Shown here: positions 40,440-59,287 of the stretch, piece by piece
How positions within the stretch are numbered: the stretch's first letter is position 1
Layout of the letters: each line of letters opens with the position of its first letter
Assembly: GCA_964410125.1 (NCBI GenBank)
Contig: CAYPGQ010000005.1
Location: 21,395-85,394 of the forward strand
Source: an uncultured Eubacteriales bacterium
GTDB lineage: Bacteria; Acidobacteriota; Aminicenantia; Aminicenantales; Aminicenantaceae
Length of the DNA stretch: 64,000 nucleotides
Direction of reading: 5' to 3'
Translations under genes and position numbers: made by a program
The notes under the pieces: generated by a model
What the model saw: only the letters and a program-made list of their open reading frames with translations
Told to the model about the DNA's origin: nothing
Database searches by the model: none

Positions 40440-43159
40440 ACTCCCCCATATTTTTCTGCTCTTATTCTGAATGCTTCTTCTCCACCTTCCATAATATTTT
40501 TTACATCTGCCCTAATATCTTCTTTATCAATAGAGCCTTTGTTATTAATAACGCACCTTTCATTTTTAGTCTCTAAAACAAGAACCAATTCAGAGTCTCC
40601 TAAGACAGGGATGTTCGCATTATGTGTAGCAATAAATAATTGTCTTTTCCCCTTTATTTCTCTAAGGATTTTCACTACGTCCTCGTATATAAAACGGTTA
40701 TCAAGGTCCTCTTCAGGCTGGTCAAGAACAACAATCCTATCCTCTTGAGCAAATAGAAGCAATAATAAGGCAGTAGCTTTTTGACCAATAGAAAGTTTAT
40801 TAATTAATTTATATTCTTCATTCACTTTCAAAAATATTTCAATTTTGTCCTCGGGAAAAAAAGTTTCAAGCTCATAAAGTCTTTCGGAATCTTTAAACCA
40901 TTCTAATATTCTACTGGACATTGCCTGAGTGAGATTGAATTCTTCACGCAATTTCTGCTCATTACCCTTGATATATTGGGAAAGCAGAAGACCATCGGTA
41001 ACTTTATTGGGTGATTTAACCAACGCTTCAATAGCATCGCTTGAAACTTTTGAGCCTTTTAATAAGTTTTTTAAATCTTCCATAAAGTTGTCTCTTTCTT
41101 CTTCATATTTCACCTCAATTTTGAGTCTTCCTTTTAAGGCATCGTTTATTTTTTCAAGTTGTTCTTTTCTTATATTAAAAATATCATGCCTCTTCTTACC
41201 TATTTTATTCTTCGATTTCTCCCTATCATTTTCCAATTTTTCAATTTCCATTTCTAGCCTTATTAATTCTTCAATTAACGGTATTAACTTTGCCCTTTCC
41301 TTAGTCAATCTTTCGAGTTCGTCTGGTTTAAGTCCTTTCTCGGCCAATTCTTTTTTTATTTTTTGAATTTTTGTTTCTACTTTTTTCTTTTTTTCTAACC
41401 ATTCAGCATACAAGCCTTCAATACTTTTTCTGGTCTGGTCTGTTGTCTTGGAAAGCTGTTTTTTACTTTGCTCAAATGCTCTTTTAATTTGACTTATCTC
41501 TCCAGCTACCTTTTCCAGTATAAATTTATTTTCACTCTTGCCTCTCTTTAAATTATTTTCTAAATAGTTTAGTTCGGATGCAGATTCATCAAAAAAGAAA
41601 AGCATTTTTTCGTTTATTCCATCAAGTTTTTCAATTGCATCTTGTAATTTTTCTTCATCATCTACTATGTTAGTCCACCTTCTGAGTCTTTCTTCTACTT
41701 TCATACCTTTATAAACTTTTATTCCTGCTTCTATTCCCTTTAATCTTTGCTCATACTCTTCCCTTTTTCTCGTCTTTTCTTTAAGAGCTAAAAGCTTTCT
41801 TCCATTTTCTCTTAATTGTTCAATTAACCTCTTGAATTCCTCATGTAAATGCCTTATCCTCTCTCCTATTAATTCATCAATTAATTGGAGTTGAAAAGTA
41901 GGGGTAATAGAAAGAAAATAGAGTTCCTTTTGACCTATTATAATCGGATATTTTGCTTCTTCGAACAAACTCTGTATAGAAAAACCTGTCTTCACACCAC
42001 TTTCATCAATAATTTCTGTATCTTTCCCTATTGTCCTTTTTATCTCGAATTCCTTTTTCTCTTTTCCATAATATCTTTCAATAAAGACAGAAAGCTCCCC
42101 TCCACTTCCAACAACACTCTCTACAAAATCCATTCGGAAAGATTTATCTGCATAAATTGGTAAATCCATAACATATCGCATAGTTTCTATGATAGCCGAT
42201 TTACCCACACCCCTTCCTCCAATAAATGTATTTAGTTCAGGATTGAATAAAATTTCTATATCCCTCAGAAAAGTTGAGCCATTGATTAGTATCTTTGATA
42301 TTCTATTATGATAAAAAGAAGGACATTCATAAGTCTTCACCCTTACTTCTGGGTCGTGTAGAGCTATTTTTAAAGCACCAATGTTAAAAGAACTTAATTT
42401 ATAATATGTGGTTCTTAATTTACCATCCCTCTTTTTAGTGCCTATATCGTCAAGACTTTTAGGGTCAGTATTTTCAAGGATTGCTATTTTTTTAAAATAA
42501 TCAGATGGAAGTTCATTTGTAGATATAAGTTTATTTTTTCCTTCCTCAGAGATATATTCAATAGCATCAGGCTTTACATTCATCAAATACTTTGCAGATT
42601 GGGAAGGATTATAAGTATGAAGAAGTCCTTTATCATTTTCTAGGTGTGGAAATACAACCAAACATTTATATTTTTCTCGAATTTTACTTATCAACTTTTC
42701 CAGTTCTAATTCACTTTCAATATCTCTATGTTTTCTTCCGTCAACTAAGGATTTTTGTGGATTCTTGTCTAAACTGTGTAGAAATGTATTTAAACCTTTA
42801 ATATCCACATTTTGCTCAAAAATTAACAACAAATGAAGACCATATTTCCCACTTAATTTTAATGAAAGCTCAACTCCTGGAAATATTACAATTCCTTTAT
42901 CTTTAGCCTTATTCTTTATTAACTCAAACCAATCCTTTCTCAATCCGTTATAATCTGTAATAGCTCCTATCTTAATCTGCGCTTCTTGTATTTTCTTTAT
43001 ATATTCTTCTACTAATTTTTCACACTCGTTATTGGAATCTAAATTAATCCCTGGTGGTAATGTAAGACTTTCTACACCTGGAGAATGCAGATGTAAATCT
43101 GTCTTCACCCAATTTGCCCCATTATAACTTTTGTCATTCATAGTAATTAACTCTTTCAT
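40436..43159 (-). CDS. PHP-domain phosphoesterase fused to a Rad50/SMC-like ABC ATPase with a long coiled coil
   Basis: N-terminal DLHLHSPG and FPGVELSL PHP motifs. Walker A IGGRGVGKSAII at about residue 316. A coiled coil of about 350 aa. C-terminal signature SIGQKATALLLLLFA, Walker B VVLDQPEEDLD and H-loop IATHN. Confidence 0.5.
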   Translation of the reverse strand: MKELITMNDKSYNGANWVKTDLHLHSPGVESLTLPPGINLDSNNECEKLVEEYIKKIQEAQIKIGAITDYNGLRKDWFELIKNKAKDKGIVIFPGVELSLKLSGKYGLHLLLIFEQNVDIKGLNTFLHSLDKNPQKSLVDGRKHRDIESELELEKLISKIREKYKCLVVFPHLENDKGLLHTYNPSQSAKYLMNVKPDAIEYISEEGKNKLISTNELPSDYFKKIAILENTDPKSLDDIGTKKRDGKLRTTYYKLSSFNIGALKIALHDPEVRVKTYECPSFYHNRISKILINGSTFLRDIEILFNPELNTFIGGRGVGKSAIIETMRYVMDLPIYADKSFRMDFVESVVGSGGELSVFIERYYGKEKKEFEIKRTIGKDTEIIDESGVKTGFSIQSLFEEAKYPIIIGQKELYFLSITPTFQLQLIDELIGERIRHLHEEFKRLIEQLRENGRKLLALKEKTRKREEYEQRLKGIEAGIKVYKGMKVEERLRRWTNIVDDEEKLQDAIEKLDGINEKMLFFFDESASELNYLENNLKRGKSENKFILEKVAGEISQIKRAFEQSKKQLSKTTDQTRKSIEGLYAEWLEKKKKVETKIQKIKKELAEKGLKPDELERLTKERAKLIPLIEELIRLEMEIEKLENDREKSKNKIGKKRHDIFNIRKEQLEKINDALKGRLKIEVKYEEERDNFMEDLKNLLKGSKVSSDAIEALVKSPNKVTDGLLLSQYIKGNEQKLREEFNLTQAMSSRILEWFKDSERLYELETFFPEDKIEIFLKVNEEYKLINKLSIGQKATALLLLLFAQEDRIVVLDQPEEDLDNRFIYEDVVKILREIKGKRQLFIATHNANIPVLGDSELVLVLETKNERCVINNKGSIDKEDIRADVKNIMEGGEEAFRIRAEKYGGV

Positions 43160-45198
43160 TTTATCTTCACCTTCAAAACTTTATTTGTGTCATTCCCAAA
43201 CACATCCACAACTTTTGTCATTATCTGATATTCCCCTGCCTCTTCGTATTTGTGTCTAGCTTCATACTCTACTTTTGGATTCTTCTTCATCCTGAAACTC
43301 TGCCATTGATTATGAAAAGTATCGCCTTTGTAACCCCAGTCAATCGCCCAGTAGTCTATGAGCTCTCTTGAATCCTTTACCTTACAAGCGATTTCTGCAA
43401 GCTCCGCAGTTGGTGCAAGCTGAAAGTCTGTGATTTTCAGTTCTACTTCTTCCTTTTTCATTTTTGTTTCAATCTCCAAATAGGCAACTTCTGGGAATCT
43501 CACATATTTAGACAGTTCTTTTTCAATAACATCATCCCTTATTTTCAATAGTTGCAGGTCGAAACCCACTAAAGAAGATTTGATTTCATTCACTGATGGT
43601 ATTTGAACCAATTTCAAATCAACTCCGTTTTTCTTTGCTAATTCTTTTGCCAGCTCATTTACCTCATAACTCCACTCCCAGCCCAAAACATCTGCCTTAT
43701 TGAAATTATTGCTTTTACATTCAATTACAACCTTCTCAACTTCTTCCATCGTAACAGGAGCGTTCAAAGGACCAACATGTACTGCCCTCTCTCCTTTCCT
43801 TCCATGCAAATATCTAAACCCTGTTAGAGGTTGAGATTGATAGAGTTTGAGCATAAAAGCGAGGTATTCATCCTCTCTTTCCTGCCAGTAAACTGTTTCA
43901 TAATTTCCGATATTCCAGAGTTCAAAAGGTTTTGCTGGCTTTTCATAATTCTTTTTGTTTTCATCTTGTAAATCCTTTGAATTGTGAATATCTAAAAGCC
44001 TCTTTCTTGTAATTTGAATCGCAAACTTGGATAAATCAGAGCCTATCCATCTTCTACCGAGTTTCTCTGCAACCGCTAAAGTTGTGCCGGAACCGCAGAA
44101 GAAGTCAGCTACAATATCGCTTGGGTTAGAAGATGCAAGAATGACGCGTTTCAGGAGAGCTTCGGGTTTTTGAGTATCGAAGTCTAAACGCTCTGCACTG
44201 TTTGCTGAAATCGGAGCAACTTCATCATCTTTCCAAAGGTCCCCCAAGTAATTGCCTGCTTTTTCATCCAAGTATCTCTTTATCCTTGGGAGGCCGGATG
44301 ACGTAAAAATAATTTGCCCTTCGTCCATGGCTTTGTTAATCTTTTCTTGGTCCCAAATCCAATGTTTACCCGGTGGCGGATACAATAGCTTATCTCCGAA
44401 ATAACGTGGCGGGCCGCTTCCTTTCTGTGTAAAATCGAAAGAACCGTATCTCCGTCCGCTTTCCTCCTCTACATATGGGTAAACCTCCTCATCTTTTTCT
44501 CCTCTAATAAATTGTGGGTTGAAAATAGCACTGTTAGACTTTGAGTATATTAAGAGCATGTCCTTAACGTTACTGAAGAATTTGCTCTGGACTTTTGCAG
44601 CAGTCAGTTTGCGCCAAGTGATTTCATTTCTAAAATTCTCATACCCAAAAATTTCATCCATCATTACCTTAACATAATGTCCCACATGCCAGTCTAAATG
44701 CACATAAATAGAACCATTCTCAGCCAATAACCCCCTAATCAAAACCAATCGTTCGTACATATACTTGAGATAAGAAGCAATGCCACCGCTCCATGTATCT
44801 TTGTATGCTCGCTCTTCAATTATAGACGGCTCTTTTTCTATTCTCTCGTCTCCGAGTTTTGTTCTAATGGTAAAATCTGCTCCAGTAAAAAAGGGTGGGT
44901 CAATATATATCAGATTTATCTTACCAGCCCAGCCCTGCTTTATTAGAGAACTCATCACAAGCTTGTTATCCCCCCAGATGAGTTTGTTTTTCCAGTCCTT
45001 TGAATAGTTCTCAGGATACTCATTCTCCGGGAATAGTGAAACTGTATATCCTCCCTTAATTCTAGGTTTATTTACTGTTTCCACTACTTGAAAGGGAAGA
45101 TTTGGTTTCTCAACAGGTATCTTTTCCCCTTTCTCATATTTATCATATTTTTCTTCCCAAAGCAGCTCCACATATTTTTTGTTATGTGCCATATTCAT
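43156..45198 (-). CDS. Type III R-M Mod subunit (beta-class N6-adenine DNA methyltransferase)
   Basis: Motif IV IYIDPPF precedes motif I FFCGSGTT, which is the beta-class order typical of Mod proteins. Length 680 aa. The stop overlaps the next gene by 4 nt. Confidence 0.75.
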   Translation of the reverse strand: MNMAHNKKYVELLWEEKYDKYEKGEKIPVEKPNLPFQVVETVNKPRIKGGYTVSLFPENEYPENYSKDWKNKLIWGDNKLVMSSLIKQGWAGKINLIYIDPPFFTGADFTIRTKLGDERIEKEPSIIEERAYKDTWSGGIASYLKYMYERLVLIRGLLAENGSIYVHLDWHVGHYVKVMMDEIFGYENFRNEITWRKLTAAKVQSKFFSNVKDMLLIYSKSNSAIFNPQFIRGEKDEEVYPYVEEESGRRYGSFDFTQKGSGPPRYFGDKLLYPPPGKHWIWDQEKINKAMDEGQIIFTSSGLPRIKRYLDEKAGNYLGDLWKDDEVAPISANSAERLDFDTQKPEALLKRVILASSNPSDIVADFFCGSGTTLAVAEKLGRRWIGSDLSKFAIQITRKRLLDIHNSKDLQDENKKNYEKPAKPFELWNIGNYETVYWQEREDEYLAFMLKLYQSQPLTGFRYLHGRKGERAVHVGPLNAPVTMEEVEKVVIECKSNNFNKADVLGWEWSYEVNELAKELAKKNGVDLKLVQIPSVNEIKSSLVGFDLQLLKIRDDVIEKELSKYVRFPEVAYLEIETKMKKEEVELKITDFQLAPTAELAEIACKVKDSRELIDYWAIDWGYKGDTFHNQWQSFRMKKNPKVEYEARHKYEEAGEYQIMTKVVDVFGNDTNKVLKVKIK

Positions 45199-45297: not shown

Positions 45298-45310
45298 AAA
45301 CACCGTGTTA
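45298..45310. promoter_or_regulatory. Dyad-symmetric 13-mer AAACAC-C-GTGTTA about 100 bp upstream of the mod operon start
   Basis: Shares the 12-mer AACACCGTGTTA with 55998..56010, where it forms a perfect 6-1-6 palindrome (TAACAC-C-GTGTTA) about 60 bp upstream of the ATPase operon. Confidence 0.25.
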
Positions 45311-48868: not shown

Positions 48869-50785
48869 TCATTGGTGAAGGTTTCTTAAGGGAAAAATCC
48901 TCTCGAAAAACTTATTGAAGACAGTTATTTGGTAAAGGGAGTACAATTCTGCTTTTTCAAGCTCTCCTGTCCAGTCTGATTGGAAAGATTCGTTGTGTAG
49001 CACACTTTTTTCAGGCAGTGCCAAAACAAAGGATTCATCTGCAACTAAAATTGAGTACACCTCTTCCCAGCCCGCGCGAGAAAAAAGCAAAGAAATGAAG
49101 AGACGCATCCACTCTTTTTCTTTGTGCCCAAAGTATAAAAGGAAAATAGCATGGGAATCTTTCAAATGTGCGTATAGAGGATTTCTTGTGGACTTATTGC
49201 CAATATCCATACTTAAAAAATCCATCGATAGATAGTGAGGAGGATCGGCTATAATAAGATTGTAATCTCCGTAATAAATATCGTTGGGTTCTTCTAACGG
49301 TGGTTGCTTTTTATAGTGATTTGTCAACGAAAATATATCAGCAGGCACGATATGAGCTGCACTTGAGACTTTCTCATTATACGGAAAAGGATTTTTATCT
49401 ATACTAGCAATGTTCAGCTGTTCGTCTGATGATCCCCGTAGGAAACACTCATTTAGACCTGTTCCGGAAAAAAGACTAAGTATCTTTAGATTATTTTTAT
49501 TTTTAATTGCTTGTACTACAGATAAGGAGATATATCCTAAAAGCGGAGAGGGGCCGACTTGCTCTGAATATCTATAAACCAAATCTAGCTCGTTTTCCCT
49601 CAATTGTACACCAAGTTTCTCAAATTTCTTTCTGTAGATCCCCAAAACAGAATCATCAGAGACTTCATTCTTTGTCCATTCATATAAGTTAACATCCATA
49701 GCTTCAGTCACCTCAATCGTTGGCGAGATAAAAACATCTACCCTTATCTTTAGTTTATCCACCGGAATTACATTTGTCTTTTCGGTAACTTTCAATTCTT
49801 TACATTGAAGAGCCTCCAAATAACCTTTCATCCAACCATTTAAGTATTCCTCTATTTTATTTAATATCATCGCTGAGTCACTATATAGAAAATTGTATCC
49901 ATCTTTGTTAGAGATATATAGTCTTATTATTAGAACATACGCTGGATGCTTCGGTGAATTTTTGTTACCTATTCGCTCTACCACAAATAAATTGTGTCCA
50001 ATATTATCAACGCTGACTATATCCCTCTTATTCCGAACTTTTATCATATTCTCAACATATCGGTTGGCTTCTCCTTTAAGATGATTAACAAAGTCTTTAT
50101 TGGATATGCAGAAGCGTTTATAGCTCTTTTTATATTCCAAACAAAAATTATATGTAGAGTGAATAACTTCCATAATCCTTTTACATAGAATCTTAAGCTC
50201 CTCATCATACTTATACATATCCGTATATTCTTCCTCTAAAACAAGGGCAATTCCCCCAAGAGTCCCATGTGAATAAATCGCAAATTTAAAGTTTTCATAT
50301 TTTTCCTTTTGAACAGTTAAAAAAGAATACGCTGTAGAAACCACACTATGCTTATAAGTCAAATCTTGAATATCACCAACCAGTTCAAAGTTTTTCCATG
50401 TAGATGGAGATTCCAATTTAAATCCTGCCGGAATGGGTTTTTTTATGCCAAAATGTCTAAGTTTTTCTTCGCTCCTCAGTGCAATATGTTTGTCCCAATA
50501 AATTTTTAAGAAGTCCGCGTACTTTTTTTGGGTTTCTTCCTTTATATTGCCAGTGTAAACGAGTTTTCTATCAGACCTTTTGTAATGGATCCCTCCTATA
50601 GTAATTCCTATAATTTTAAACTTCTTTTGTATAGATTCCCATCGTTTTTCCGCGATGCATTTAACTGGATTGTCGGTTTTATTATTATGCGACAACAAAT
50701 CTCTCCTTATTGTATCCACTATCGCACTTTCGAAAGAAAGGAGAGCTTCTTTTCTTAATTGTAGTTTTTGGTCATTGACACCCAT
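48869..50785 (-). CDS. Hypothetical 638-aa protein with a C-terminal amino-methyltransferase-like domain (FSGTG ... DPPH)
   Basis: The C-terminal third carries LSLFSGTGLNE (motif I-like) followed about 80 aa later by NLIIADPPHY (a (D/N)PPY-type motif IV, gamma-class order). The N-terminal 400 aa resemble nothing I recognise. Confidence 0.4.
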   Translation of the reverse strand: MGVNDQKLQLRKEALLSFESAIVDTIRRDLLSHNNKTDNPVKCIAEKRWESIQKKFKIIGITIGGIHYKRSDRKLVYTGNIKEETQKKYADFLKIYWDKHIALRSEEKLRHFGIKKPIPAGFKLESPSTWKNFELVGDIQDLTYKHSVVSTAYSFLTVQKEKYENFKFAIYSHGTLGGIALVLEEEYTDMYKYDEELKILCKRIMEVIHSTYNFCLEYKKSYKRFCISNKDFVNHLKGEANRYVENMIKVRNKRDIVSVDNIGHNLFVVERIGNKNSPKHPAYVLIIRLYISNKDGYNFLYSDSAMILNKIEEYLNGWMKGYLEALQCKELKVTEKTNVIPVDKLKIRVDVFISPTIEVTEAMDVNLYEWTKNEVSDDSVLGIYRKKFEKLGVQLRENELDLVYRYSEQVGPSPLLGYISLSVVQAIKNKNNLKILSLFSGTGLNECFLRGSSDEQLNIASIDKNPFPYNEKVSSAAHIVPADIFSLTNHYKKQPPLEEPNDIYYGDYNLIIADPPHYLSMDFLSMDIGNKSTRNPLYAHLKDSHAIFLLYFGHKEKEWMRLFISLLFSRAGWEEVYSILVADESFVLALPEKSVLHNESFQSDWTGELEKAELYSLYQITVFNKFFERIFPLRNLHQ

Positions 50786-53019: not shown

Positions 53020-53562
53020 TCAATGATCCTGGGCCATAATTCCGACTTTTCTCAACTGTTCCTTAAGATATTGCTCACTCCTGTTCAATATACCCTTGAA
53101 GTGTTTCCGAACCACAATATCAAATTTAGGACAAAGTTGACTTTCCAAATCCTTCATCCGGTTAGGCCTTAAACTTTCAATCAACATCTCTCTTGTTGGG
53201 ATTTCATCCATCGGGATTTTCGCAAGAATCCAGTTTTCAAGAGGGGCAAGACGTAAGACTGCTATAACAGGTTGGTAGCCATCGTGAGTACGGTCACGAA
53301 GAGCCTGCACATTATCAGTGGTGAGAGGAATTGATAATTTCTCTGTGGTTTTTACCTCAACTGCAAACTTTTGATTAGATTCCGATGTTATATCAATATC
53401 AACTCCTTGCACGCCTCGTTCTACAATATTAGTAAAGCCCATTTCATGGAAGCTGAGAGCCAGTAGTTTTTGTACAATTTTGCCAAAAGGTCCAGATGGT
53501 GTACCTTTGATTCCAAACTTTTTCTGCAACTTCTGTAAAAGTTCAAGAGTTTCTACTTTCAT
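53020..53562 (-). CDS. Small PD-(D/E)xK-fold nuclease-like protein
   Basis: GVDIDITSESNQKFAVEVKT matches the D-x(n)-E-x-K restriction-endonuclease-like core. Its start is 3 nt after the upstream ATPase stop. Confidence 0.4.
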   Translation of the reverse strand: MKVETLELLQKLQKKFGIKGTPSGPFGKIVQKLLALSFHEMGFTNIVERGVQGVDIDITSESNQKFAVEVKTTEKLSIPLTTDNVQALRDRTHDGYQPVIAVLRLAPLENWILAKIPMDEIPTREMLIESLRPNRMKDLESQLCPKFDIVVRKHFKGILNRSEQYLKEQLRKVGIMAQDH

Positions 53563-53564
53563 AA

Positions 53565-55742
53565 TTATATTTCCTTCGAAATTTTCGGGCCGGAATCCGG
53601 TGCCCAGTCCGAAAGCTTATATATAGTTTTGACTTTGGTAATATTATCCTTTAAAAGCTGTTGCATTTCAGCATCCATAGTAGAGACTGTAATGTTTTTT
53701 ATATCGCTGAGTTCATTAAAGATTTCTACAAGACGAGCTTTTTGCTGTGAATCTAAACTTTGCGATGAGTCGTCCATCAAGATAAATCCGAGAGGATGAG
53801 AATCTCCAGATGCTTTAGTCAAACCTAAGAAAATAGACAAAGCAAGGCTATTCAGGTCTCCTTGACTTAGAACAGGAATGGGTCTCTTGCCGTCTTGGTC
53901 TTCGAAAATATAAAAGTTTCCGCCAGTTTTTTTATCCTCATCTACTTTAATATTGAGTGTTTGAAAAGCCGGGTTGTTGGTTATTCTACGAAAGTAGCGG
54001 CCAATTGCACTCCTGGCTGAATCAATTTTTTCTTCTGCTTCCTTTAGCATACAAGATTTGATAATTTTACTAAGTTCTTCCACGTCTCTTACTAGATTTG
54101 AGACATCGGTTCTGATTTTCTCTTGTTTCTGGTATTCATTGGTTTTTTGAATTTGGTTTATTTCTTCGAGTTTATTCTTAAATAGCAAAATATCATAAAG
54201 TAAGTTCATTATATCTGTTTTTTCTAAAATGGCGTCAATTGTAACTTGCTTATTCTTAATAGCATCTGCAATCTCTTTTAAACGTGAATCAATGTTTTTT
54301 ATTTCTATGGATAATATTGCAGCAGGATCATCCTTATCAGTCAACTCTTTATGTAGAAATTCTGAGATATTATTGATTGCCTTCTTTAATTCCTCTTTTT
54401 CTCTTCTAGCGTCTTTCTCTAAGTGGACAAGTTCCTTCTTCAATCTTTCAAAATCGGTTTTCTTTTTGTCTAATTCTGCCTGTTGTTTTTCTAACTCCTG
54501 CACTTGGGCTGTAATTTTTTCCTCCCATTCCTTTCGTAAATGCTCAAGCAAATTGGACACCTTTTCTCCGCATAAGGGACAAATGTCAGCATCAGAGGGA
54601 GCAGCTAATTTCAGAATGGAAATACCTTCTTCAATCAATTTCGCTTTCGGGCTTATTCGCTTAATTTCTTTATTAATAGCATCAATCTCTTCAAATGCTT
54701 TTCTTATTTTATTGTCGATTTCATCTTTGTTGCCATTTTCTTGTTCAAAATCCTGAAGTTCCTTCTTCTTTGATTTAAGATTCAGGTATTGAGTCTCATA
54801 TTTACTTTTGAATGAAACCATTTCGCTTCTCTTCCTTTGTTTTTCTGATTGTTCTTTCACGTCGGGAGATTCTGCCCAAAGACGGCTGCACTCATTCTTA
54901 ATATCGGTAATAAATGACTCGGTATTTTTCCAATCAGAAGGAGGAGAAATTGCCGTTGTTGTAAGTCCCAATAGTCGGGCAAAGTTACCAATGTCTTTTA
55001 TGGTTGATTCTACCAGTTCAAGCAGTTTATTTTCGTTTAATTCTTCTTCACTCAGTCCCTTCTCTTTGGCTTTATCTCTTTTATTATCCAGGTCTTTTTG
55101 CCTTATCTTTATCCCTTCTTGTACACGGGTCTGAAATTTATTAAATTCTTCTGTAAGCTCTTTCTGAAGCTTTAAGACGTCAGACTTCTTAATACCATCA
55201 AGAATATTCCGATAATCTGATAAACCTAAGAGGCGGTCCATTACAGCACTCTGTTCGCTTGGTTTTTGTATCACAAAGTCGTGGATAGTCTCCTGGTGTT
55301 GATATACGGTAGTAGCAAAGTCTTTGAATGAAACCCGAAGTAACTTTGCTATTTCTTGGTCACCCTCGTCTCCTTCTTTCTCTGTTCCATTTGGCAAAGA
55401 TATTTTTATACTTTTGCCTTTTTTGCCTTTTCCCTTGGCTTCGGCTCGAGTAATAGTAAAGATTCCCTGTTCTCCCTCGATTTTCAAATTTACCTTGGCC
55501 TTCTCAGAATTATCATTCACAACTCTCCAGGCCATCTCACCTGTGCCTACACGTTCACGAATTCCAGATTTTTCACCAATGCACTCATCTCCATACAAAC
55601 ACCATTCAATTGCATTTAATACACTACTCTTACCTTGATGATTTCCCCCATGTAGTAAAGTAACGGGATTTTCGAATTCGATAGAGGTTTTTTGAGTAAA
55701 TCCTCTGAATCCTTCTATTTCTACTTTTTTAATCTTTAACAT
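53565..55742 (-). CDS. Compact Rad50/SbcC-like ABC ATPase with coiled coil and a CxxC zinc hook
   Basis: N-terminal EIEGFRGF...HGGNHQGKSSVLNAIEWCLYG (Walker A). A central coiled coil with ICPLCGEK at its midpoint. C-terminal signature LSQGDLNSLALSIF and Walker B FILMDDSSQSLD. Confidence 0.6.
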   Translation of the reverse strand: MLKIKKVEIEGFRGFTQKTSIEFENPVTLLHGGNHQGKSSVLNAIEWCLYGDECIGEKSGIRERVGTGEMAWRVVNDNSEKAKVNLKIEGEQGIFTITRAEAKGKGKKGKSIKISLPNGTEKEGDEGDQEIAKLLRVSFKDFATTVYQHQETIHDFVIQKPSEQSAVMDRLLGLSDYRNILDGIKKSDVLKLQKELTEEFNKFQTRVQEGIKIRQKDLDNKRDKAKEKGLSEEELNENKLLELVESTIKDIGNFARLLGLTTTAISPPSDWKNTESFITDIKNECSRLWAESPDVKEQSEKQRKRSEMVSFKSKYETQYLNLKSKKKELQDFEQENGNKDEIDNKIRKAFEEIDAINKEIKRISPKAKLIEEGISILKLAAPSDADICPLCGEKVSNLLEHLRKEWEEKITAQVQELEKQQAELDKKKTDFERLKKELVHLEKDARREKEELKKAINNISEFLHKELTDKDDPAAILSIEIKNIDSRLKEIADAIKNKQVTIDAILEKTDIMNLLYDILLFKNKLEEINQIQKTNEYQKQEKIRTDVSNLVRDVEELSKIIKSCMLKEAEEKIDSARSAIGRYFRRITNNPAFQTLNIKVDEDKKTGGNFYIFEDQDGKRPIPVLSQGDLNSLALSIFLGLTKASGDSHPLGFILMDDSSQSLDSQQKARLVEIFNELSDIKNITVSTMDAEMQQLLKDNITKVKTIYKLSDWAPDSGPKISKEI

Positions 55743-55754
55743 CGTCTACCTTCA

Positions 55755-55940
55755 TCATAGCGTTTTTTCAAGATTCTCAAGTAGTTGTTCATAATCCTTT
55801 TTGATTTTATCTATTCGAGAGTTGAGCGTTGATTTTATCTGCTCAACTCCACCTTGTTCATAGGATTCGCATATTTCTTGCCAGAGATTTCTCAATTTCT
55901 CTTCTTTTATTTCTTTTTGAACTTTTTCTTTATAGGTCAT
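55755..55940 (-). CDS. Small (61 aa) charged coiled-coil protein
   Basis: Short ORF 12 nt upstream of the ATPase gene. Helical, K/E-rich. Confidence 0.3.
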   Translation of the reverse strand: MTYKEKVQKEIKEEKLRNLWQEICESYEQGGVEQIKSTLNSRIDKIKKDYEQLLENLEKTL

Positions 55941-55997
55941 AGATTTCTCCTTTATCTCTTAATTTGTAGCTCCAATTGATAATTATCAGCGATTTCA

Positions 55998-56010
55998 TAA
56001 CACCGTGTTA
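55998..56010. promoter_or_regulatory. Perfect 6-1-6 palindrome TAACAC-C-GTGTTA upstream of the small-protein / Rad50-like ATPase operon
   Basis: Read directly from the sequence. Partner site at 45298..45310. Confidence 0.25.
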
Positions 56011-56034
56011 TGTGATAGGCAATCAATTTCAATT

Positions 56035-56625
56035 TTAATCCCTCTTTCGACAAATATGATTCATCTTTTTTTGGAAATTATCTCTAAGGTTTGTATTTCT
56101 TTCATCTTTTAATTGTTCAAGGTAATGATAAAAATCGTCTTTAAGTTTTTTATGAAATTCAGTTCTGTTGATAACCATTTTATTATTGATATTTTGAACG
56201 AGTGGACCAATAGAACAAACTAAAGAATCACTTTGTATTTCAGCTTGGTGTAGAATTCCACATCTATAATTCTTGTAGAATCGCATTGCCATATCCTGTG
56301 AAAAATACTTTTTGAAAGATGGACTTGTTGTTAAGAATTTTTTAAACGCTTTTTCAGATTTATTCTTTGTAGTTTTCCACCCTTCAATAAATGATTGTAG
56401 TGTTTCAATTAACAGACAATCGATAGATAATATTGTAAATCCATATTTCTTTTCTTTGGACAGTTTATTTTTTTCTTTTTCTATTAATAAATCTACTGGT
56501 TCAAAATATCTGTTCTCTATTCTCATATTTAATATTTCTATGGCTCGGTTCCAGTCAGGACTGGATAAATCATTTAAATTCAATCTGAGCCATTCGTTAT
56601 GCTGTATTCCTGGAGCAATTTCCAA
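56035..56625 (-). CDS. Hypothetical protein (196 aa)
   Basis: ORF in the AT-rich island. No recognisable motifs. Confidence 0.35.
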   Translation of the reverse strand: MEIAPGIQHNEWLRLNLNDLSSPDWNRAIEILNMRIENRYFEPVDLLIEKEKNKLSKEKKYGFTILSIDCLLIETLQSFIEGWKTTKNKSEKAFKKFLTTSPSFKKYFSQDMAMRFYKNYRCGILHQAEIQSDSLVCSIGPLVQNINNKMVINRTEFHKKLKDDFYHYLEQLKDERNTNLRDNFQKKMNHICRKRD

Positions 56626-56757
56626 ATATATTCCTCCCTATTGAGTGCCTTTCATATAACGTTCCTAGCATAAAACAAGTTTTTGTAAATTAAATATATG
56701 GGTGAGTACCACCAGGCATGAACCTTTTGTGCTATGTTAGGCGATGTCCACACCCTC

Positions 56758-58236
56758 TTATGCTCCAAGAACCCATTGGACTGTGAGTTCCTTTTCATCA
56801 AAGAGACTCTTCGCAGTCGTAGCATCGTCTTTTGCAAGACGTGCAGCAATTTCACCTGACGGATCAGGGTCGTCCCATATCTTGTGGTCGAATATCTTCT
56901 TGACAAATCGTCTGAAGTAATTGAATTCCTCATCTGGAATGACACGGTAGAAAAAGAGCGCTCTCTCTTCGTCTGTATAATTTTTCAGGTGTATATTAAT
57001 TGCATCTCTCAATAGAATAGCCCAAGCCCTCACGGCTCCCGCGCTAAAGATTCTTTCAGCTTTTTTGTGCACAGCATCAGCACGTTCAGGCGCCCACTTA
57101 TCTTCTAATCCTTCTTCAGCGATAATAGTCATAAGTTTGACTAGATTGCGCTTTTCGTCCTTTCGAAAGTCGGTATCGGATTCGAATTCTTCATCAACGG
57201 GCGGCGACACCAGCATGTGTTGAAAAAAAGTCTTTTTTATTCGAGCAAATGTCAAGGGTTGCTTTCGACCTCTGTGCTTCTCTGATAGATACCTTGACAA
57301 CTTGTTTGACTCATCGTTTACTATTTCATTGTACAAAGCTAGTGCGATTTCATTTCTAGCTTGTGCCCATGTCTTTTGCTTTGAGTGGAAGAGGAAATTG
57401 TAGAAACCTAATTCCGACTTTTCTCCTTCCGTATCCATATATTCTATCCAGTCCTCTCCAAAGATATCGGCATATTTCTGCATCAATTCATGAGAATAAA
57501 ATGACATTTGTCTGTATGGCCCGTGTGCATCAAGATTGGTTTCCTTTAGCAATCTCTTGTCTGGGGTGATGTATATTTTACATTCTATCATTGGACGCCC
57601 AGCCCAAATTTGAGCTGCTGCTTTATGTTGTCCGTCGAAGAGATAAAGAGTGCCACTTTCATCGATTCTACAAATTGAGGGGGATATCTGTGTGTTAATT
57701 TGAAAGTGCCGATATAACTTCCATAAATTTGGCTCTCGTAGGGGGCGGGGTTGTAACTCAATGTCATTTCCGATGTATTCAACTGGTAATGTTCCGTAGA
57801 AATATTTCCAATTGGTTGTTGCGCATATGTAAAGTGGAAAGTCATGCCTGGAATCCTTATAAAATAGGCTGATATGCTCTTCTTTGATTTCGTAGCTGAG
57901 TCGTTCTCCACAATGCCCCTTTTTATGACGGATTAAATCGTCAAGAAATTTAGGCTCCCCACCTTCGAAAAATGCCGCGAGTTCTATCTTGTCACGATAC
58001 TCTTGAAGGCTCATTGTACCAATCGTGCGATGGTGACGTTTGCAAACGGGAGCAATATTATCCAAGCTAGTTGGACCACCTGAGGAAAATGGTTTAATGT
58101 GATGAAATTCGATAGACGCATCCTCAGGAATAGGTTCCCCGTCAACAAAGCACCTTCGCTCATGCTGATCGAGAACCTTTTGCTTTTCAGTTTCTGAGAG
58201 CTGTCTTTTTTTGGCCATTTCTTCCCTCCTTTTCAT
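56758..58236 (-). CDS. HNH endonuclease domain fused to a DGQHR / ParB-like (DUF262-like) domain
   Basis: N-terminal CFVDG...HHIKPFSSGG...LDNIAPVCKRHH (HNH). Mid-protein LYLFDGQHKAAAQIWAGR, a DGQHR-type ParB/DndB-like motif. Confidence 0.5.
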   Translation of the reverse strand: MKRREEMAKKRQLSETEKQKVLDQHERRCFVDGEPIPEDASIEFHHIKPFSSGGPTSLDNIAPVCKRHHRTIGTMSLQEYRDKIELAAFFEGGEPKFLDDLIRHKKGHCGERLSYEIKEEHISLFYKDSRHDFPLYICATTNWKYFYGTLPVEYIGNDIELQPRPLREPNLWKLYRHFQINTQISPSICRIDESGTLYLFDGQHKAAAQIWAGRPMIECKIYITPDKRLLKETNLDAHGPYRQMSFYSHELMQKYADIFGEDWIEYMDTEGEKSELGFYNFLFHSKQKTWAQARNEIALALYNEIVNDESNKLSRYLSEKHRGRKQPLTFARIKKTFFQHMLVSPPVDEEFESDTDFRKDEKRNLVKLMTIIAEEGLEDKWAPERADAVHKKAERIFSAGAVRAWAILLRDAINIHLKNYTDEERALFFYRVIPDEEFNYFRRFVKKIFDHKIWDDPDPSGEIAARLAKDDATTAKSLFDEKELTVQWVLGA

Positions 58237-58340
58237 TTTTCATATGTTATGGAGTGAATGTTGCCTAACCATTATGCGAAAAAGAAACTACTATTTTCCC
58301 CTGTTGTATATCTTTGCCGATTTTTAGATTTGCCATAAAT

Positions 58341-58556
58341 TTATATTATTAGTTCCTTCCAACTTACATTTAATGCTTTGGCGATTTTTGCAACTGTCTG
58401 AACAGAAGATTTTTTAACAACATTGGACTCTAATTTTGTTAAAGTGGTATAAGGAATGTCGGCTTTTCTTGCAAGTCTATCTTGTTTAAGTTCTTTTTTC
58501 TCCCGAAATTTTTTTACATTATCTACAATCATATTTGTAATTGATATTGTTTCCAA
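58341..58556 (-). CDS. XRE-family helix-turn-helix transcriptional regulator (71 aa)
   Basis: LKQDRLARKADIPYTTLTKLESN is a typical HTH_3 segment. The size resembles RM controller or cI-like proteins. Confidence 0.7.
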   Translation of the reverse strand: METISITNMIVDNVKKFREKKELKQDRLARKADIPYTTLTKLESNVVKKSSVQTVAKIAKALNVSWKELII

Positions 58557-58796: not shown

Positions 58797-58873
58797 TGGT
58801 CGGGACGGGCGGATTTGAACCGCCGACCCCACGCACCCCAAGCGTGTGCGCTACCAGACTGCGCCACGTCCCG
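58797..58873 (-). tRNA. tRNA-Pro (anticodon GGG), CCA encoded
   Basis: The minus-strand sequence CGGGACG-TG-GCGC-AGTCTGGTA-GCGC-A-CACGC-TTGGGGT-GCGTG-GGGTC-GGCGG-TTCAAAT-CCGCC-CGTCCCG-A-CCA folds into a canonical cloverleaf with anticodon GGG and G37. Confidence 0.8.
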
Positions 58874-58933: not shown

Positions 58934-59287
58934 TTATTTTTTCTCAAGAGATGTAGCAAGGTCTTTCAACTGCTGCCTGACATCATAAAGGGCTTTTCTC
59001 AGCCGATCGGAGTGGACAGATGTTGAACTTTTCAAACCGAATTCTTCCTCGATGCGCCTTTTTGCTCCAGCAAGAGTTAAGCCTTGTGTATCGACGAGCT
59101 CCTTCAGACGGAGGATGATAGCCAAGTCTTTTTTCCTGAAAATCTTGTGCCCTGTGGCTGTCTGGCCGGCATGGATGAAATAAAATTCTTTCTCCCAGTT
59201 GTCGATGACCTTTGGGTCCAGTTTAGTTATGCGACTGATCTCATCCAGCTTGTATACAAGCTTTTCAGGAATGTTTTCACTTTTCAT
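58934..59287 (-). CDS. MerR-family transcriptional regulator
   Basis: N-terminal YKLDEISRITKLDPKVIDNWEKEF HTH and a C-terminal coiled coil. Confidence 0.6.
   Translation of the reverse strand: MKSENIPEKLVYKLDEISRITKLDPKVIDNWEKEFYFIHAGQTATGHKIFRKKDLAIILRLKELVDTQGLTLAGAKRRIEEEFGLKSSTSVHSDRLRKALYDVRQQLKDLATSLEKK

What the first reader, a model, noticed from the sequence alone, without database searches (positions are those of the whole stretch)
53020..58556. Candidate defence cluster built around a zinc-hook Rad50-like ATPase
Six tightly spaced minus-strand genes in the AT-rich island: a 71-aa XRE HTH regulator, an HNH + DGQHR(ParB-like) fusion nuclease, a 196-aa unknown, a 61-aa coiled-coil protein, a compact (725 aa) Rad50/SbcC-like ATPase with a CPLC zinc hook at the coiled-coil apex, and a PD-(D/E)xK protein (VDIDIT...EVK) starting 3 nt after the ATPase stop. 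An SMC-like ATPase paired with a small nuclease and a small accessory protein is reminiscent of Lamassu- or Wadjet-type logic. The gene order and partner domains do not match those systems cleanly.
Basis: partly seen in the sequence, partly recalled or inferred. Interest (0 to 1): 0.75.

Follow-up and report, generated by a model that had tools for sequence, protein, structure and literature searches.

The report
Minimal Lamassu-like ATPase–nuclease defence operon
Only three of the six flagged genes form a real conserved unit (a tiny helical protein, a Rad50/LmuB-like zinc-hook ATPase and a Holliday-junction-resolvase-like nuclease); it looks like an undescribed, stripped-down relative of the Lamassu anti-phage system, and the other three genes are unrelated neighbours in the same defence hotspot.

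Summary
All six minus-strand ORFs exist as described. Comparative genomics splits them. Only p61 (55755-55940), the 725-aa ATPase (53565-55742) and p180 (53020-53562) travel together: 50 of 61 related loci from many phyla keep p180 directly downstream, nearly all have a 60-100 aa ORF directly upstream, and median gaps are 12 and 3 nt. XRE, the HNH protein and p196 occur next to the ATPase in none of those loci. They are also missing from the syntenic 90%-identical relative L070.

The ATPase matches PADLOC LmuB models full-length (E=1e-49; 19/19 diverse relatives). It has an invariant CPxCG hook and a long-Lamassu-type hhhhDD Walker B, and falls far below the Rad50/SbcC/SMC cut-offs. p180 is a confident Hjc-type PD-(D/E)xK fold (pLDDT 92) with invariant D55, E69 and K71. 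No LmuA or LmuC profile matches the partners, and the gene order (small-ATPase-nuclease) is non-canonical.

Close relatives sit beside Gabija-like, HerA/NurA, OLD and type III R-M/Ppl genes. Best reading: an unvalidated, minimal Lamassu-like DNA-sensing nuclease system, a new variant of a known kind. The HNH protein does carry a ParB/Srx-fold domain (its motif is DGQHK), but it is a stand-alone gene.

The parts
55755..55940 (-). p61: small helix-GG-helix protein, first gene of the conserved three-gene operon. It holds the position of Lamassu LmuC ('middle component').
   Evidence: An ORF of 60-100 aa ends just before the ATPase start in almost all loci. Three sequence sub-families cover 52 loci. 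The median gap to the ATPase is 12 nt over 51 loci. It is 88-92% identical in close relatives L070-L074. A strong SD (AAGGAG) precedes its ATG. No LmuC model hits any of 25 family members.
53565..55742 (-). LmuB-like / Rad50-like coiled-coil ABC ATPase (725 aa). Motifs: Walker A G32-x4-GKSS40, Q-loop YQHQE (147-151), zinc hook C388-P-L-C391-G, signature S626-Q-G-D629, Walker B FILMDD658.
   Evidence: PADLOC LmuB PDLC03859 E=1.1e-49, covering aa 1-702 against model positions 2-597 of 611. All 19 diverse relatives hit LmuB models. Rad50/SbcC/SMC NCBIfam scores lie far below their cut-offs. The best PDB matches are Rad50 heads at 5e-17, plus the Rad50 hook fragment. Invariant motifs are listed. 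There are 372 homologues of about 720 aa.
53020..53562 (-). p180: Hjc-type PD-(D/E)xK nuclease core (about aa 25-125; catalytic candidates D55, E69, K71) plus a C-terminal helical extension of about 55 aa. This is the predicted effector.
   Evidence: It lies immediately downstream of the ATPase in 50 of 61 loci, with a median gap of 3 nt. Its identity co-varies with that of the ATPase (r=0.90 over 43 loci). AlphaFold model: pLDDT 92.3, pTM 0.90. Foldseek top hits are archaeal Hjc (prob 1.0, TM on target 0.64-0.72), then RecU and PvuII. The family profile hits Hjc 1gef at E=0.031, aligning VDID and EVK to Hjc's VDL and EVK. JGI names several members 'Holliday junction resolvase'. No LmuA model hits any of 30 members.
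55998..56010 (.). Palindrome AACAC(C/G)GTGTTA (full form CATAACAC-G-GTGTTATG) in the spacer about 60 nt upstream of p61. It overlaps a -35-like hexamer and may be an operator for the three-gene operon.
   Evidence: It occurs at only two sites in the 64 kb window; the other is upstream of the type III mod gene. There are 4 strand-matches against 0.21 expected, and 1 of 100 shuffles reached that count. It is not conserved in relatives.
56035..56625 (-). p196: a neighbour, not part of the module. It belongs to a very large family with no Pfam/NCBIfam/PADLOC model; R121-x4-H126 is invariant (HEPN-like signature, unproven).
   Evidence: No hit in any of the 61 ATPase loci or in L070-L074. There are 1,349 cluster representatives at E<=0.001. 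Invariant residues are R35, R39, F63, G82, R121 and H126. Seven of the 34 aligned members carry a C-terminal AIG2/GGCT domain.
56758..58236 (-). HNH + ParB/Srx-fold protein (492 aa, motif DGQHK): a neighbour and stand-alone gene, not part of the module.
   Evidence: Pfam HNH 1.2e-6. The family has 822 homologues of about 486-495 aa. Neighbourhoods differ in L062-L065. Fold matches are to ParB-N, Noc, sulfiredoxin and Cas9/McrA HNH domains. It is absent from every ATPase locus.
58341..58556 (-). XRE-family HTH regulator (71 aa): a neighbour at the edge of the island, not a constant partner of the module.
   Evidence: HTH_3 4.9e-12. It is absent from the 61 loci. An 84%-identical copy occurs in L071, but 4.3 kb upstream of the module and ahead of a DruA-NurA-HerA cluster.
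58797..58873 (-). tRNA-Pro(GGG), bordering the variable region on the MerR/RarA side.
   Evidence: ARAGORN. No tRNA-derived direct repeat (att) was found.

Best explanation
The finding is a composite. Its core is a conserved, horizontally mobile three-gene operon.

- p61 is a helical hairpin of about 61-66 aa.
- The 725-aa protein is an LmuB-like, Rad50-like ABC ATPase with a zinc hook.
- p180 is an Hjc-type PD-(D/E)xK nuclease with a short helical tail.

I read this operon as a minimal, non-canonical relative of the Lamassu anti-phage/anti-plasmid system.

Shown here:
- The three genes co-occur, are spaced as a translationally coupled operon would be, and co-diverge.
- The ATPase belongs to the LmuB-like radiation.
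- The nuclease has an intact Hjc-like catalytic core.
- Close relatives lie among known defence genes.

Inferred by analogy with Lamassu and Rad50/SbcCD (PMC12663957, PMC10586767):
- The ATPase dimerises through its heads and the CPxCG hook. It senses DNA ends, hairpins or branched replication intermediates of an invader.
- p61 binds near the heads, as LmuC and the SbcD C-terminal domain do.
- p180 docks through its helical tail and is kept inactive, most simply as a monomer, since Hjc enzymes act as dimers.
- When DNA is sensed in the ATP-bound state, p180 is released or brought together and cuts DNA. This either kills the infected cell or destroys the invader's replication intermediates.
- The DD Walker B and the apparent lack of an H-loop histidine suggest a slow, switch-like ATPase.

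XRE, HNH-ParB and p196 are independent cargo of the same variable hotspot, which lies between tRNA-Pro/MerR/RarA and SurE.
For: Unit of three genes:
- p180 lies directly downstream in 50 of 61 loci. Seven of the 11 exceptions end at or within the ATPase gene, two are not family members, and one is a decayed copy.
- A small ORF lies directly upstream in nearly all loci.
- Median gaps are 12 and 3 nt.
- ATPase and p180 identities correlate, r=0.90.
- No other gene recurs.

LmuB-like ATPase:
- PADLOC LmuB gives 168 bits over the full length, and 19 of 19 relatives at 18-51% identity hit LmuB models first.
- The unrelated Ppl-like coiled-coil ATPase in the same window scores only 24.7 bits on that model.
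- hhhhDD plus a single CxxC is the long-Lamassu signature (PMC12663957). CPxCG is the hook motif reported for LmuB (PMC10586767).

Nuclease.

Defence context in close relatives:
- NurA/HerA/DruA plus an OLD-TOPRIM/UvrD pair (L071).
- Type III R-M + Ppl + AlbA_2 (L072/L073, and the window itself at 36.7-45.2 kb).
- An OLD nuclease (L074) and MNT/HEPN (L070).
- PADLOC hits among the 130 flanking genes include HerA, DRT, GajB, AriA, MADS and Dodola.

Accessory and mobile character:
- Proteins 80-84% identical are attributed to Glassbacteria, Zixibacteria, Nanoarchaeota and Eubacteriales MAGs.
- Decayed copies occur in L024 and L020 (in-frame stop).
Against: - There is no experimental evidence of defence for any member.
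- The partners fail sequence tests for LmuA (0/30) and LmuC (0/25).
- The gene order is small-ATPase-nuclease, not effector-LmuC-LmuB.
- p180 has only a two-helix tail, not the 5-6-helix or larger LmuA C-terminal domain described in PMC12663957.
- Among solved structures the ATPase profile finds Rad50 heads. No chain named LmuB or DdmC is among the 60 listed of 82 matches at E<=10.
- Many flanks in more distant loci are housekeeping genes.
- No copies were found on viral contigs or PLSDB plasmids.
- The activation mechanism is purely by analogy.
- Krishnan et al. 2020, the main ABC-ATPase classification, could not be read. Prior description there cannot be excluded.
Confidence: 0.65

Rival explanations
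1. The three-gene module is a defence system that works like SbcCD or Mre11-Rad50 rather than like Lamassu. The Hjc-like nuclease stays bound to the ATPase heads, in the place of Mre11/SbcD. The complex directly cuts invader DNA ends, hairpins or four-way junctions, with no effector release and no host suicide.
For: - The closest solved relatives of the ATPase are Rad50 heads and the Rad50 hook.
- The nuclease is small and single-domain, and its gene is spaced as if translationally coupled to the ATPase.
- Its fold is that of a structure-specific junction resolvase.
- PMC12663957 derives Lamassu itself from SbcCD.
Against: - The best profile match is LmuB, not Rad50/SbcC.
- The DD Walker B is the long-Lamassu signature.
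- No tool here distinguishes release/oligomerisation from in-complex cleavage.
Confidence: 0.2
2. The module is not immune. It is an accessory DNA-repair or recombination machine, analogous to SbcCD, that processes hairpins, stalled forks or Holliday junctions of the host chromosome.
For: - The ATPase resembles Rad50.
- The nuclease has an Hjc fold, and JGI annotates several members as 'Holliday junction resolvase'.
- Many distant loci have housekeeping neighbours.
- The module is absent from phage and plasmid collections.
Against: - The distribution is patchy and clearly shaped by horizontal transfer across bacterial and archaeal MAGs.
- Pseudogenised copies exist.
- In all four distinct close-relative contexts (five loci) it sits beside defence genes, within a variable hotspot.
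- All Rad50/SbcC/RecN/RecF equivalog scores lie far below their cut-offs.
Confidence: 0.12
3. One reading: all six genes (XRE, HNH-ParB, p196, p61, ATPase, p180) form one multi-component defence system.
For: All six share a strand and lie adjacent in an AT-rich region. An XRE homologue occurs in the same island in one relative, L071.
Against: - XRE, HNH and p196 give no hit in any of the 61 related loci, and none lies adjacent to the module in five relatives of 80-90% identity, including syntenic L070.
- The HNH gene occurs alone in four unrelated contexts.
- p196 belongs to a huge independent family.
- The gaps between these genes are 94-132 nt, against 2-12 nt inside the module.
Confidence: 0.03

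Closest known systems
Lamassu (LmuA-LmuC-LmuB; DdmABC; 'ABC-3C'), especially the 'long' type of PMC12663957
   Same: - The SMC/Rad50-like ATPase is recognised full-length by LmuB profiles.
- It has a single CPxCG zinc hook and an hhhhDD Walker B, as in long LmuB.
- A small protein is encoded immediately upstream of the ATPase, as lmuC is.
- The effector is a nuclease of the PD-(D/E)xK superfamily, to which the known Lamassu Mrr and PDDEXK effectors also belong.
- It is found in defence islands.
   Different: - The effector gene lies downstream of the ATPase, not upstream.
- The effector is a 180-aa Hjc-type nuclease with a two-helix tail. It has no recognisable LmuA C-terminal domain, and no LmuA model hits it (0/30).
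- The upstream protein is only 61-66 aa and matches no LmuC model (0/25).
- At 725 aa the ATPase falls between short (about 600 aa) and long (about 800 aa) LmuB.
- No family member scores better than E=8.6e-52 on any LmuB model, so it is not one of the catalogued subtypes.
- No solved LmuB/DdmC chain is among the 60 PDB matches listed.
Rad50-Mre11 / SbcCD DNA-end processing complexes
   Same: Both have a coiled-coil ABC ATPase with a CxxC zinc hook at the apex and a nuclease gene adjacent in the operon. Rad50 heads are the best PDB sequence matches (5e-17), and the Rad50 hook fragment 1l8d aligns across the CPLC region.
   Different: - Scores are far below the Rad50/SbcC equivalog cut-offs, for example 70 bits against 700.
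- The coiled coil is much shorter.
- The nuclease is PD-(D/E)xK (Hjc-like), not an Mre11/SbcD phosphoesterase, and no Metallophos gene is a conserved neighbour.
- The nuclease gene is downstream and an extra 61-aa gene is upstream.
- Walker B is DD rather than DE.
- The distribution is sporadic and shaped by horizontal transfer.
Archaeal Holliday junction resolvase Hjc (and RecU)
   Same: The p180 core has the Hjc fold (Foldseek prob 1.0, TM on target up to 0.72). Its D...E-x-K motif aligns with VDL and EVK of Hjc, which by my recollection are the catalytic residues.
   Different: - Sequence identity is only 15-21%.
- NCBIfam Hjc gives 15.4 bits against a cut-off of 70.
- It has extra N-terminal helices and a C-terminal helical extension of about 55 aa.
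- It is always encoded after an LmuB-like ATPase.
- It occurs mostly in bacteria.
Other ABC-ATPase + nuclease defence pairs (Gabija GajA/B, PARIS AriA/B, Septu/retron PtuA/B) and Wadjet JetABCD
   Same: The general logic is shared: an ABC ATPase sensor coupled to a nuclease effector. The N-terminal P-loop region gives weak hits to GajA, AriA and PtuA.
   Different: Those hits cover only the N-terminal 50-240 residues, at E of 1e-6 to 1e-11. There is no TOPRIM, HNH or UvrD partner inside the module. No JetC, JetA, JetB or JetD match appears among the 25 best PADLOC families, and the protein has a zinc hook rather than an SMC hinge.

Membership tests
Lamassu | SMC/Rad50-like ATPase LmuB recognised by LmuB profiles | tested here: met
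   PDLC03859 gives E=1.1e-49 (168 bits), covering aa 1-702 against model positions 2-597 of 611. All 19 diverse family members hit PDLC03859 and PDLC03865 as their top families. A control coiled-coil ATPase in the window scores only 24.7 bits.
Lamassu | LmuB motif set: Walker A, Walker B hhhhDD (long) or hhhhD[QSTE] (short), and 0-2 CxxC hooks | tested here: met
   GKSS40, FILMDD658 and a single invariant C388-P-x-C391-G match the long-type signature in PMC12663957. The length of 725 aa is intermediate between the short (about 600 aa) and long (about 800 aa) types.
Lamassu | LmuA: an effector domain fused to a conserved C-terminal docking domain | tested here: not met
   No PADLOC LmuA model hits p180 or any of 30 family members at E<=0.01. 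The p180 model has only helices 128-134 and 137-172 after the nuclease core. PMC12663957 describes 5-6-helix or larger CTDs.
Lamassu | LmuC 'middle component' | tested here: not met
   No LmuC model hits any of 25 small-protein family members. Only the position (immediately upstream of the ATPase) and the all-helical character are shared. At 61-66 aa it is far shorter than my recollection of LmuC (roughly 150-200 aa). Structural equivalence was not tested.
Lamassu | Operon order: effector (lmuA), then lmuC, then lmuB | tested here: not met
   The order is small gene, ATPase, nuclease in the window and in the related loci that contain all three genes. Only 12 of 52 loci have any same-strand ORF within 150 nt upstream of the small gene, and those ORFs are unrelated to each other.
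Lamassu | Anti-phage or anti-plasmid activity that depends on the ATPase and the effector | not testable with these tools
   This needs cloning and plaque or plasmid-stability assays.
Rad50/SbcC (housekeeping) | Score above the curated equivalog cut-off | tested here: not met
   Rad50 PRK03918 gives 70.4 bits against a cut-off of 700. SbcC TIGR00618 gives 31.8 against 478.5. SMC gives 32.9 against 567. RecF gives 31.3 against 172.
Rad50/SbcC (housekeeping) | Adjacent Mre11/SbcD calcineurin-like phosphoesterase | tested here: not met
   No such gene flanks the ATPase in the window. No Metallophos family is among the recurrent neighbours in 61 loci.
Hjc-type PD-(D/E)xK nucleases (for p180) | alpha-beta-beta-beta-alpha-beta core with a D...(D/E)xK catalytic motif | tested here: met
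   The model has pLDDT 92.3. Hjc structures are the top hits at prob 1.0. D55, D57, E69 and K71 are invariant. The motif aligns to VDL and EVK of Hjc 1gef.
Hjc (equivalog) | NCBIfam NF040854 score above cut-off, and junction-resolving activity | tested here: not met
   15.4 bits against a cut-off of 70. Enzymatic activity is not testable here.
DndB / DGQHR-domain family (for the 492-aa HNH protein) | Match to DGQHR/DndB profiles, and the DGQHR motif | tested here: not met
   No DndB, DGQHR or ParB profile hit in Pfam or NCBIfam, even at E<=10 on the C-terminal 397 aa. The motif is DGQHK. A ParB/Srx fold is nevertheless supported by Foldseek (ParB-N 3.9e-3; sulfiredoxin TM on target 0.72).
HEPN (for p196) | Rx4-6H motif within a four-helix HEPN fold | tested here: inconclusive
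   R121-x4-H126 is invariant in 34 aligned members.

The most novel reading that the evidence does not exclude
The three-gene module is a distinct, ancient and widespread minimal system. It would represent a lineage between SbcCD/Rad50-Mre11 and Lamassu. A zinc-hook ATPase, clamped by a 60-aa helical hairpin, directly controls a Holliday-junction-resolvase-type nuclease. Together they recognise and cut branched or hairpin replication intermediates of invading DNA. This would be a structure-specific 'resolvase' immunity mechanism not described for any defence system.
Probability: 0.3. Interest if true: 0.75.

Novelty: new variant of a known kind. Interest (0 to 1): 0.55.

Why it matters
Lamassu is one of the most widespread SMC-based immune systems, and its origin from SbcCD is a current hypothesis (PMC12663957). 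This module is compact: 61 + 725 + 180 aa. It keeps the long-LmuB hallmarks but uses different, much smaller partners in a different gene order.

Three things would follow if it is validated:
- It would show how far the partners of an LmuB-like sensor ATPase can be swapped.
- It would be a small, tractable complex for structural work on how a Rad50-like sensor gates a nuclease.
- It would extend Lamassu-type immunity to lineages such as Chloroflexota, Planctomycetota, cyanobacteria, candidate phyla and archaeal MAGs, where a detection rule that also requires LmuA (as I understand PADLOC and DefenseFinder do) would leave an orphan LmuB hit.

It also has a practical use. It flags a class of 'orphan LmuB' hits that are in fact complete systems.

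Tried and rejected
- DndB/ParB in the HNH protein: Pfam at E<=10 on the C-terminal 397 aa gave nothing. Only the fold search resolved it.
- Zinc-hook segment: a single-sequence PDB search returned only coiled-coil noise. The evidence for the hook rests on the profile hit and on motif invariance.
- Promoter and terminator scans were at chance level: 14 against 16.4 and 5 against 4.5.
- tRNA-derived att repeats or other island-boundary repeats: none found; the repeat count is what chance predicts.
- Family members on viral contigs were only distant P-loop hits, and PLSDB plasmids gave no match.
- Literature: no supplement is held for PMC12663957. Krishnan et al. 2020 is not held. No accessible paper describes an LmuB-like ATPase with an Hjc-like nuclease.
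- The afdb50 fold library was unavailable.
- Tightly coupled upstream ORFs in L021 and L017 have no PDB relatives, and there is no consistent fourth gene.
- The 167-aa ORF after the ATPase in L039 is not a p180 homologue. L039 is the one real exception.
- Wadjet, RloC and SbcC readings were rejected: PADLOC and NCBIfam give no or only sub-threshold matches.
- The subtype that PADLOC model PDLC03859 represents is not given by the tool, so I make no claim about it.

Full report
**1. Observation.**

ORF listing confirms six minus-strand ORFs at exactly the stated coordinates:
- XRE, 58341-58556
- a 492-aa protein, 56758-58236
- a 196-aa protein, 56035-56625
- a 61-aa protein, 55755-55940
- a 725-aa ATPase, 53565-55742
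- a 180-aa protein, 53020-53562

The region is AT-rich (0.33-0.42 GC) and borders tRNA-Pro(GGG) at 58797-58873.

The domain calls largely hold.
- XRE: HTH_3, 4.9e-12.
- 492-aa protein: HNH, 1.2e-6.
- ATPase: AAA_23 and SMC_N, with CPLC at residues 388-391.
- p180: the VDID...EVK motif is present.

Two corrections are needed. The ParB-like motif is DGQHK, not DGQHR. Only the last three genes are tightly packed (gaps of 12 and 2 nt); the other gaps are 94-132 nt.

**2. What belongs together.**

The ATPase has 372 homologues at E<=1e-10. Nearly all are about 720 aa, and they come from many uncultured lineages. A scan of one genome per species returned 61 loci with up to 10 kb of flank on each side. 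I then ran tblastn with the six window proteins against these loci.
- p180 lies immediately downstream of the ATPase in 50 loci.
- Of the 11 loci without it, seven end at or within the ATPase gene and two (L060, L061) are only P-loop look-alikes.
- One more (L024) is a decayed copy, and one (L039) is a real exception.
- XRE, the HNH protein and p196 give no hit in any locus.

An ORF of 60-100 aa ends just before the ATPase start in almost every locus. These small ORFs fall into three sequence sub-families covering 52 loci. Two of the sub-families are detectably related (hhalign E=2e-5), and the third is only a positional equivalent.

All-against-all clustering of the flanking ORFs found no other recurrent gene. 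The remaining clusters are antisense shadow ORFs or synteny within one genus.

Spacing and co-divergence point the same way.
- The median gap from the small gene to the ATPase is 12 nt (51 loci).
- The median gap from the ATPase to p180 is 3 nt (41 loci), and several pairs overlap.
- ATPase and p180 identities co-vary across 43 loci, with Pearson r=0.90.

**3. The closest relatives settle the six-gene question.**

- L070 (ATPase 90% identical) is syntenic with the window: RarA 80%, MerR 72% and SurE 69% identical. It carries p61, the ATPase and p180 at 92%, 90% and 93% identity. A dual-specificity-phosphatase-like gene sits where XRE, HNH and p196 sit here.
- L071 (87%) reads recombinase, XRE-like gene, DruA, NurA, HerA, [module], OLD-TOPRIM ATPase, UvrD helicase.
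- L072/L073 (86%) read transposase, 540 aa, 60 aa, 828-aa SMC_N ATPase, [module], mod, Ppl-like, AlbA_2, res. That last cluster is 77-92% identical to the window's own cluster at 36.7-45.2 kb.
- L074 (80%) has an OLD-TOPRIM ATPase directly upstream of the module.

So the module is a stable three-gene cassette inside a variable defence hotspot, and the other three genes are interchangeable cargo.

The HNH gene has 822 homologues, and its neighbours differ in four other contexts. p196 belongs to a family with 1,349 cluster representatives.

**4. The ATPase.**

PADLOC's LmuB model PDLC03859 matches residues 1-702 end to end (E=1.1e-49, 168 bits). All 19 diverse relatives (18-51% identical to ours, each still in the three-gene layout) hit LmuB models first. 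None scores better than 8.6e-52. That pattern indicates a sister clade of the catalogued LmuB subtypes rather than a member of one.

As a control, the Ppl-like coiled-coil ATPase elsewhere in the window scores 24.7 bits on the same model. The Rad50, SbcC, SMC, RecF and DndD NCBIfam models all score far below their cut-offs.

Among solved structures, the family profile finds Rad50 heads (5e-17) and the Rad50 zinc-hook fragment 1l8d, which aligns across positions 336-434 (E=0.008). No chain named LmuB or DdmC is among the 60 listed of 82 matches at E<=10.

The invariant motifs are the following:
- Walker A: GKSS40
- Q-loop: QHQE151
- zinc hook: C388-P-x-C391-G392
- signature motif: S626-x-G-D629
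- Walker B: D657-D658

PMC12663957 reports that long LmuB has an hhhhDD Walker B and a single CxxC. PMC10586767 gives 'CPxCG or similar' as the LmuB hook motif. This protein has both, at a length between the short and long types.

Read directly from the alignment, the place where Rad50 carries its H-loop histidine (S-H-D, from my own knowledge of Rad50) is an invariant T-M-D-x-E. I take this as an inference that ATP turnover is slow.

**5. The nuclease.**

The p180 family has no Pfam domain, and JGI labels several members 'Holliday junction resolvase'. In a 30-sequence alignment, E48, R49, G53, D55, D57, E69, V70, K71, T72 and T73 are invariant.

The AlphaFold model is confident (pLDDT 92.3, pTM 0.90). 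Foldseek against the PDB returns archaeal Hjc or the related Hje as the top 20 hits (prob 1.0, TM on target up to 0.72), followed by RecU, PvuII and EcoRV.

The sequence profile hits Hjc 1gef at E=0.031. That alignment places VDID and EVK on VDL and EVK of Hjc, which are the catalytic D33 and E46-x-K48 as I recall them. After the core come helices 128-134 and 137-172, a plausible docking element.

**6. Membership versus analogy.**

No LmuA model hits any of 30 p180-family members. No LmuC model hits any of 25 small-protein members. The gene order is not lmuA-lmuC-lmuB.

Only 12 of 52 loci have a same-strand ORF within 150 nt upstream of the small gene, and those ORFs are unrelated to each other. 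A cryptic upstream LmuA is therefore unlikely.

By sequence, the module is linked to Lamassu only through its ATPase. It resembles Lamassu in logic: sensor ATPase, small helical partner just upstream, nuclease effector. It fails three of the family's defining features. I therefore call it a Lamassu-like variant, not a Lamassu member.

**7. Mechanism.**

The following is inferred from established Lamassu and Rad50/SbcCD biology (PMC12663957, PMC10586767). The hook-dimerised ATPase senses DNA ends, hairpins or branched replication intermediates. p61 sits near the heads. p180 is held inactive and becomes active on sensing, most simply by dimerising as Hjc does. It then cuts DNA.

Whether this kills the cell (Lamassu-like) or destroys invader intermediates directly (SbcCD-like) cannot be decided here. 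A non-immune repair role remains possible but is disfavoured by three things:
- horizontal transfer, with proteins 80-84% identical attributed to Glassbacteria, Zixibacteria, Nanoarchaeota and Eubacteriales MAGs;
- pseudogenised copies;
- defence neighbours in all four distinct close-relative contexts.

The flanks of more distant loci are mixed. They include HerA, DRT, GajB, AriA, MADS and Dodola hits, and also SecA, isocitrate dehydrogenase and similar housekeeping genes. No formal enrichment score could be computed.

**8. The three neighbours.**

- The 492-aa protein is an HNH nuclease fused to a ParB/sulfiredoxin-fold domain. The model has pLDDT 82.4. Matches include ParB-N at 3.9e-3, Noc, KorB, Srx at TM on target 0.72, and Cas9 and McrA HNH domains. 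It is not a profile-level DndB/DGQHR member.
- p196 has an invariant R-x4-H and belongs to a large unannotated family, some members of which are fused to AIG2/GGCT domains. HEPN is only a hypothesis.
- XRE is an ordinary HTH_3 regulator.

**9. Novelty and limits.**

I found no description of this architecture in the accessible literature. The key ABC-ATPase classification (Krishnan et al. 2020) and the supplementary tables of PMC12663957 were not available. No experiment supports a defence function.

Verdict: a real, conserved, probably defensive three-gene module. It is a new variant of a known kind, of moderate to good interest. The six-gene interpretation is rejected.

Noticed in passing
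window 45298-45310 and 55998-56010: The palindrome AACAC(C/G)GTGTTA occurs at only two sites in the 64 kb window (4 strand-matches against 0.21 expected; 1 of 100 shuffles reached that count). Both sites lie in spacers upstream of minus-strand defence operons: about 100 nt before the type III mod ATG and about 60 nt before the p61 ATG. It may be a shared operator, with XRE (58341-58556) or MerR (58934-59287) as candidate binders. Relatives do not conserve it upstream of p61.
   Followed up: partly
window 36737-45198: A second defence cluster: type III R-M (res 36737-39283, mod 43156-45198) with two embedded genes. One is a Schlafen/AlbA_2 + HATPase_c_4 protein (39270-40439). The other is a 907-aa Ppl-like PHP-ATPase (40436-43159; PADLOC Ppl 3e-48). 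In relatives L072/L073 this same cluster (77-92% identical) lies immediately after p180. In the window, an 8-kb block of Liv-type ABC transporter genes plus a PLP enzyme and a 638-aa protein separates the two.
   Followed up: partly
L070 8213-9669: The syntenic relative keeps only N- and C-terminal remnants of mod and res (73-92% identical fragments). These flank an inserted MNT/HEPN (NTP_transf_2 + HEPN) pair, which looks like a scar of cargo replacement in the SurE to RarA hotspot.
   Followed up: partly
L072 2168-6590 (and L073 2012-6434): Directly upstream of the module lies a trio of a 540-aa protein, a 60-aa protein and an 828-aa SMC_N/AAA_23 ATPase, in the canonical effector, small, ATPase order. 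It may be a long-type Lamassu sitting next to the minimal module. It was not analysed because the profile searches were exhausted.
   Followed up: no
L024 9983-10818; L020 10001-12154: Decayed copies of the ATPase gene. In the Omnitrophica MAG L024 it is broken into 119-aa and 155-aa ORFs and p180 is missing. In L020 it has an in-frame stop. Both fit a dispensable accessory module.
   Followed up: partly
window 56035-56625 (p196) and its family: A large family with no Pfam/NCBIfam/PADLOC model (1,349 cluster representatives at E<=0.001) has invariant R35, R39, F63, G82, R121 and H126. Seven of the 34 aligned members carry a C-terminal AIG2/gamma-glutamyl-cyclotransferase domain. It could be a toxin or effector domain worth defining.
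   Followed up: partly
window 56758-58236 (HNH-ParB/Srx protein): A highly conserved stand-alone family (822 hits, 53-88% identical, about 486-495 aa). Many members were recovered on contigs of only 1.6-3 kb. On longer contigs it lies next to toxin-antitoxin pairs and, in one locus, a type III-like R-M system. It may be a single-gene defence or selfish nuclease.
   Followed up: partly
window 48869-50785: A 638-aa ORF with a DPPH (methyltransferase-like) motif near its C-terminus has no Pfam or PADLOC hit. It sits between the Liv transporter genes and a PLP-dependent enzyme.
   Followed up: no
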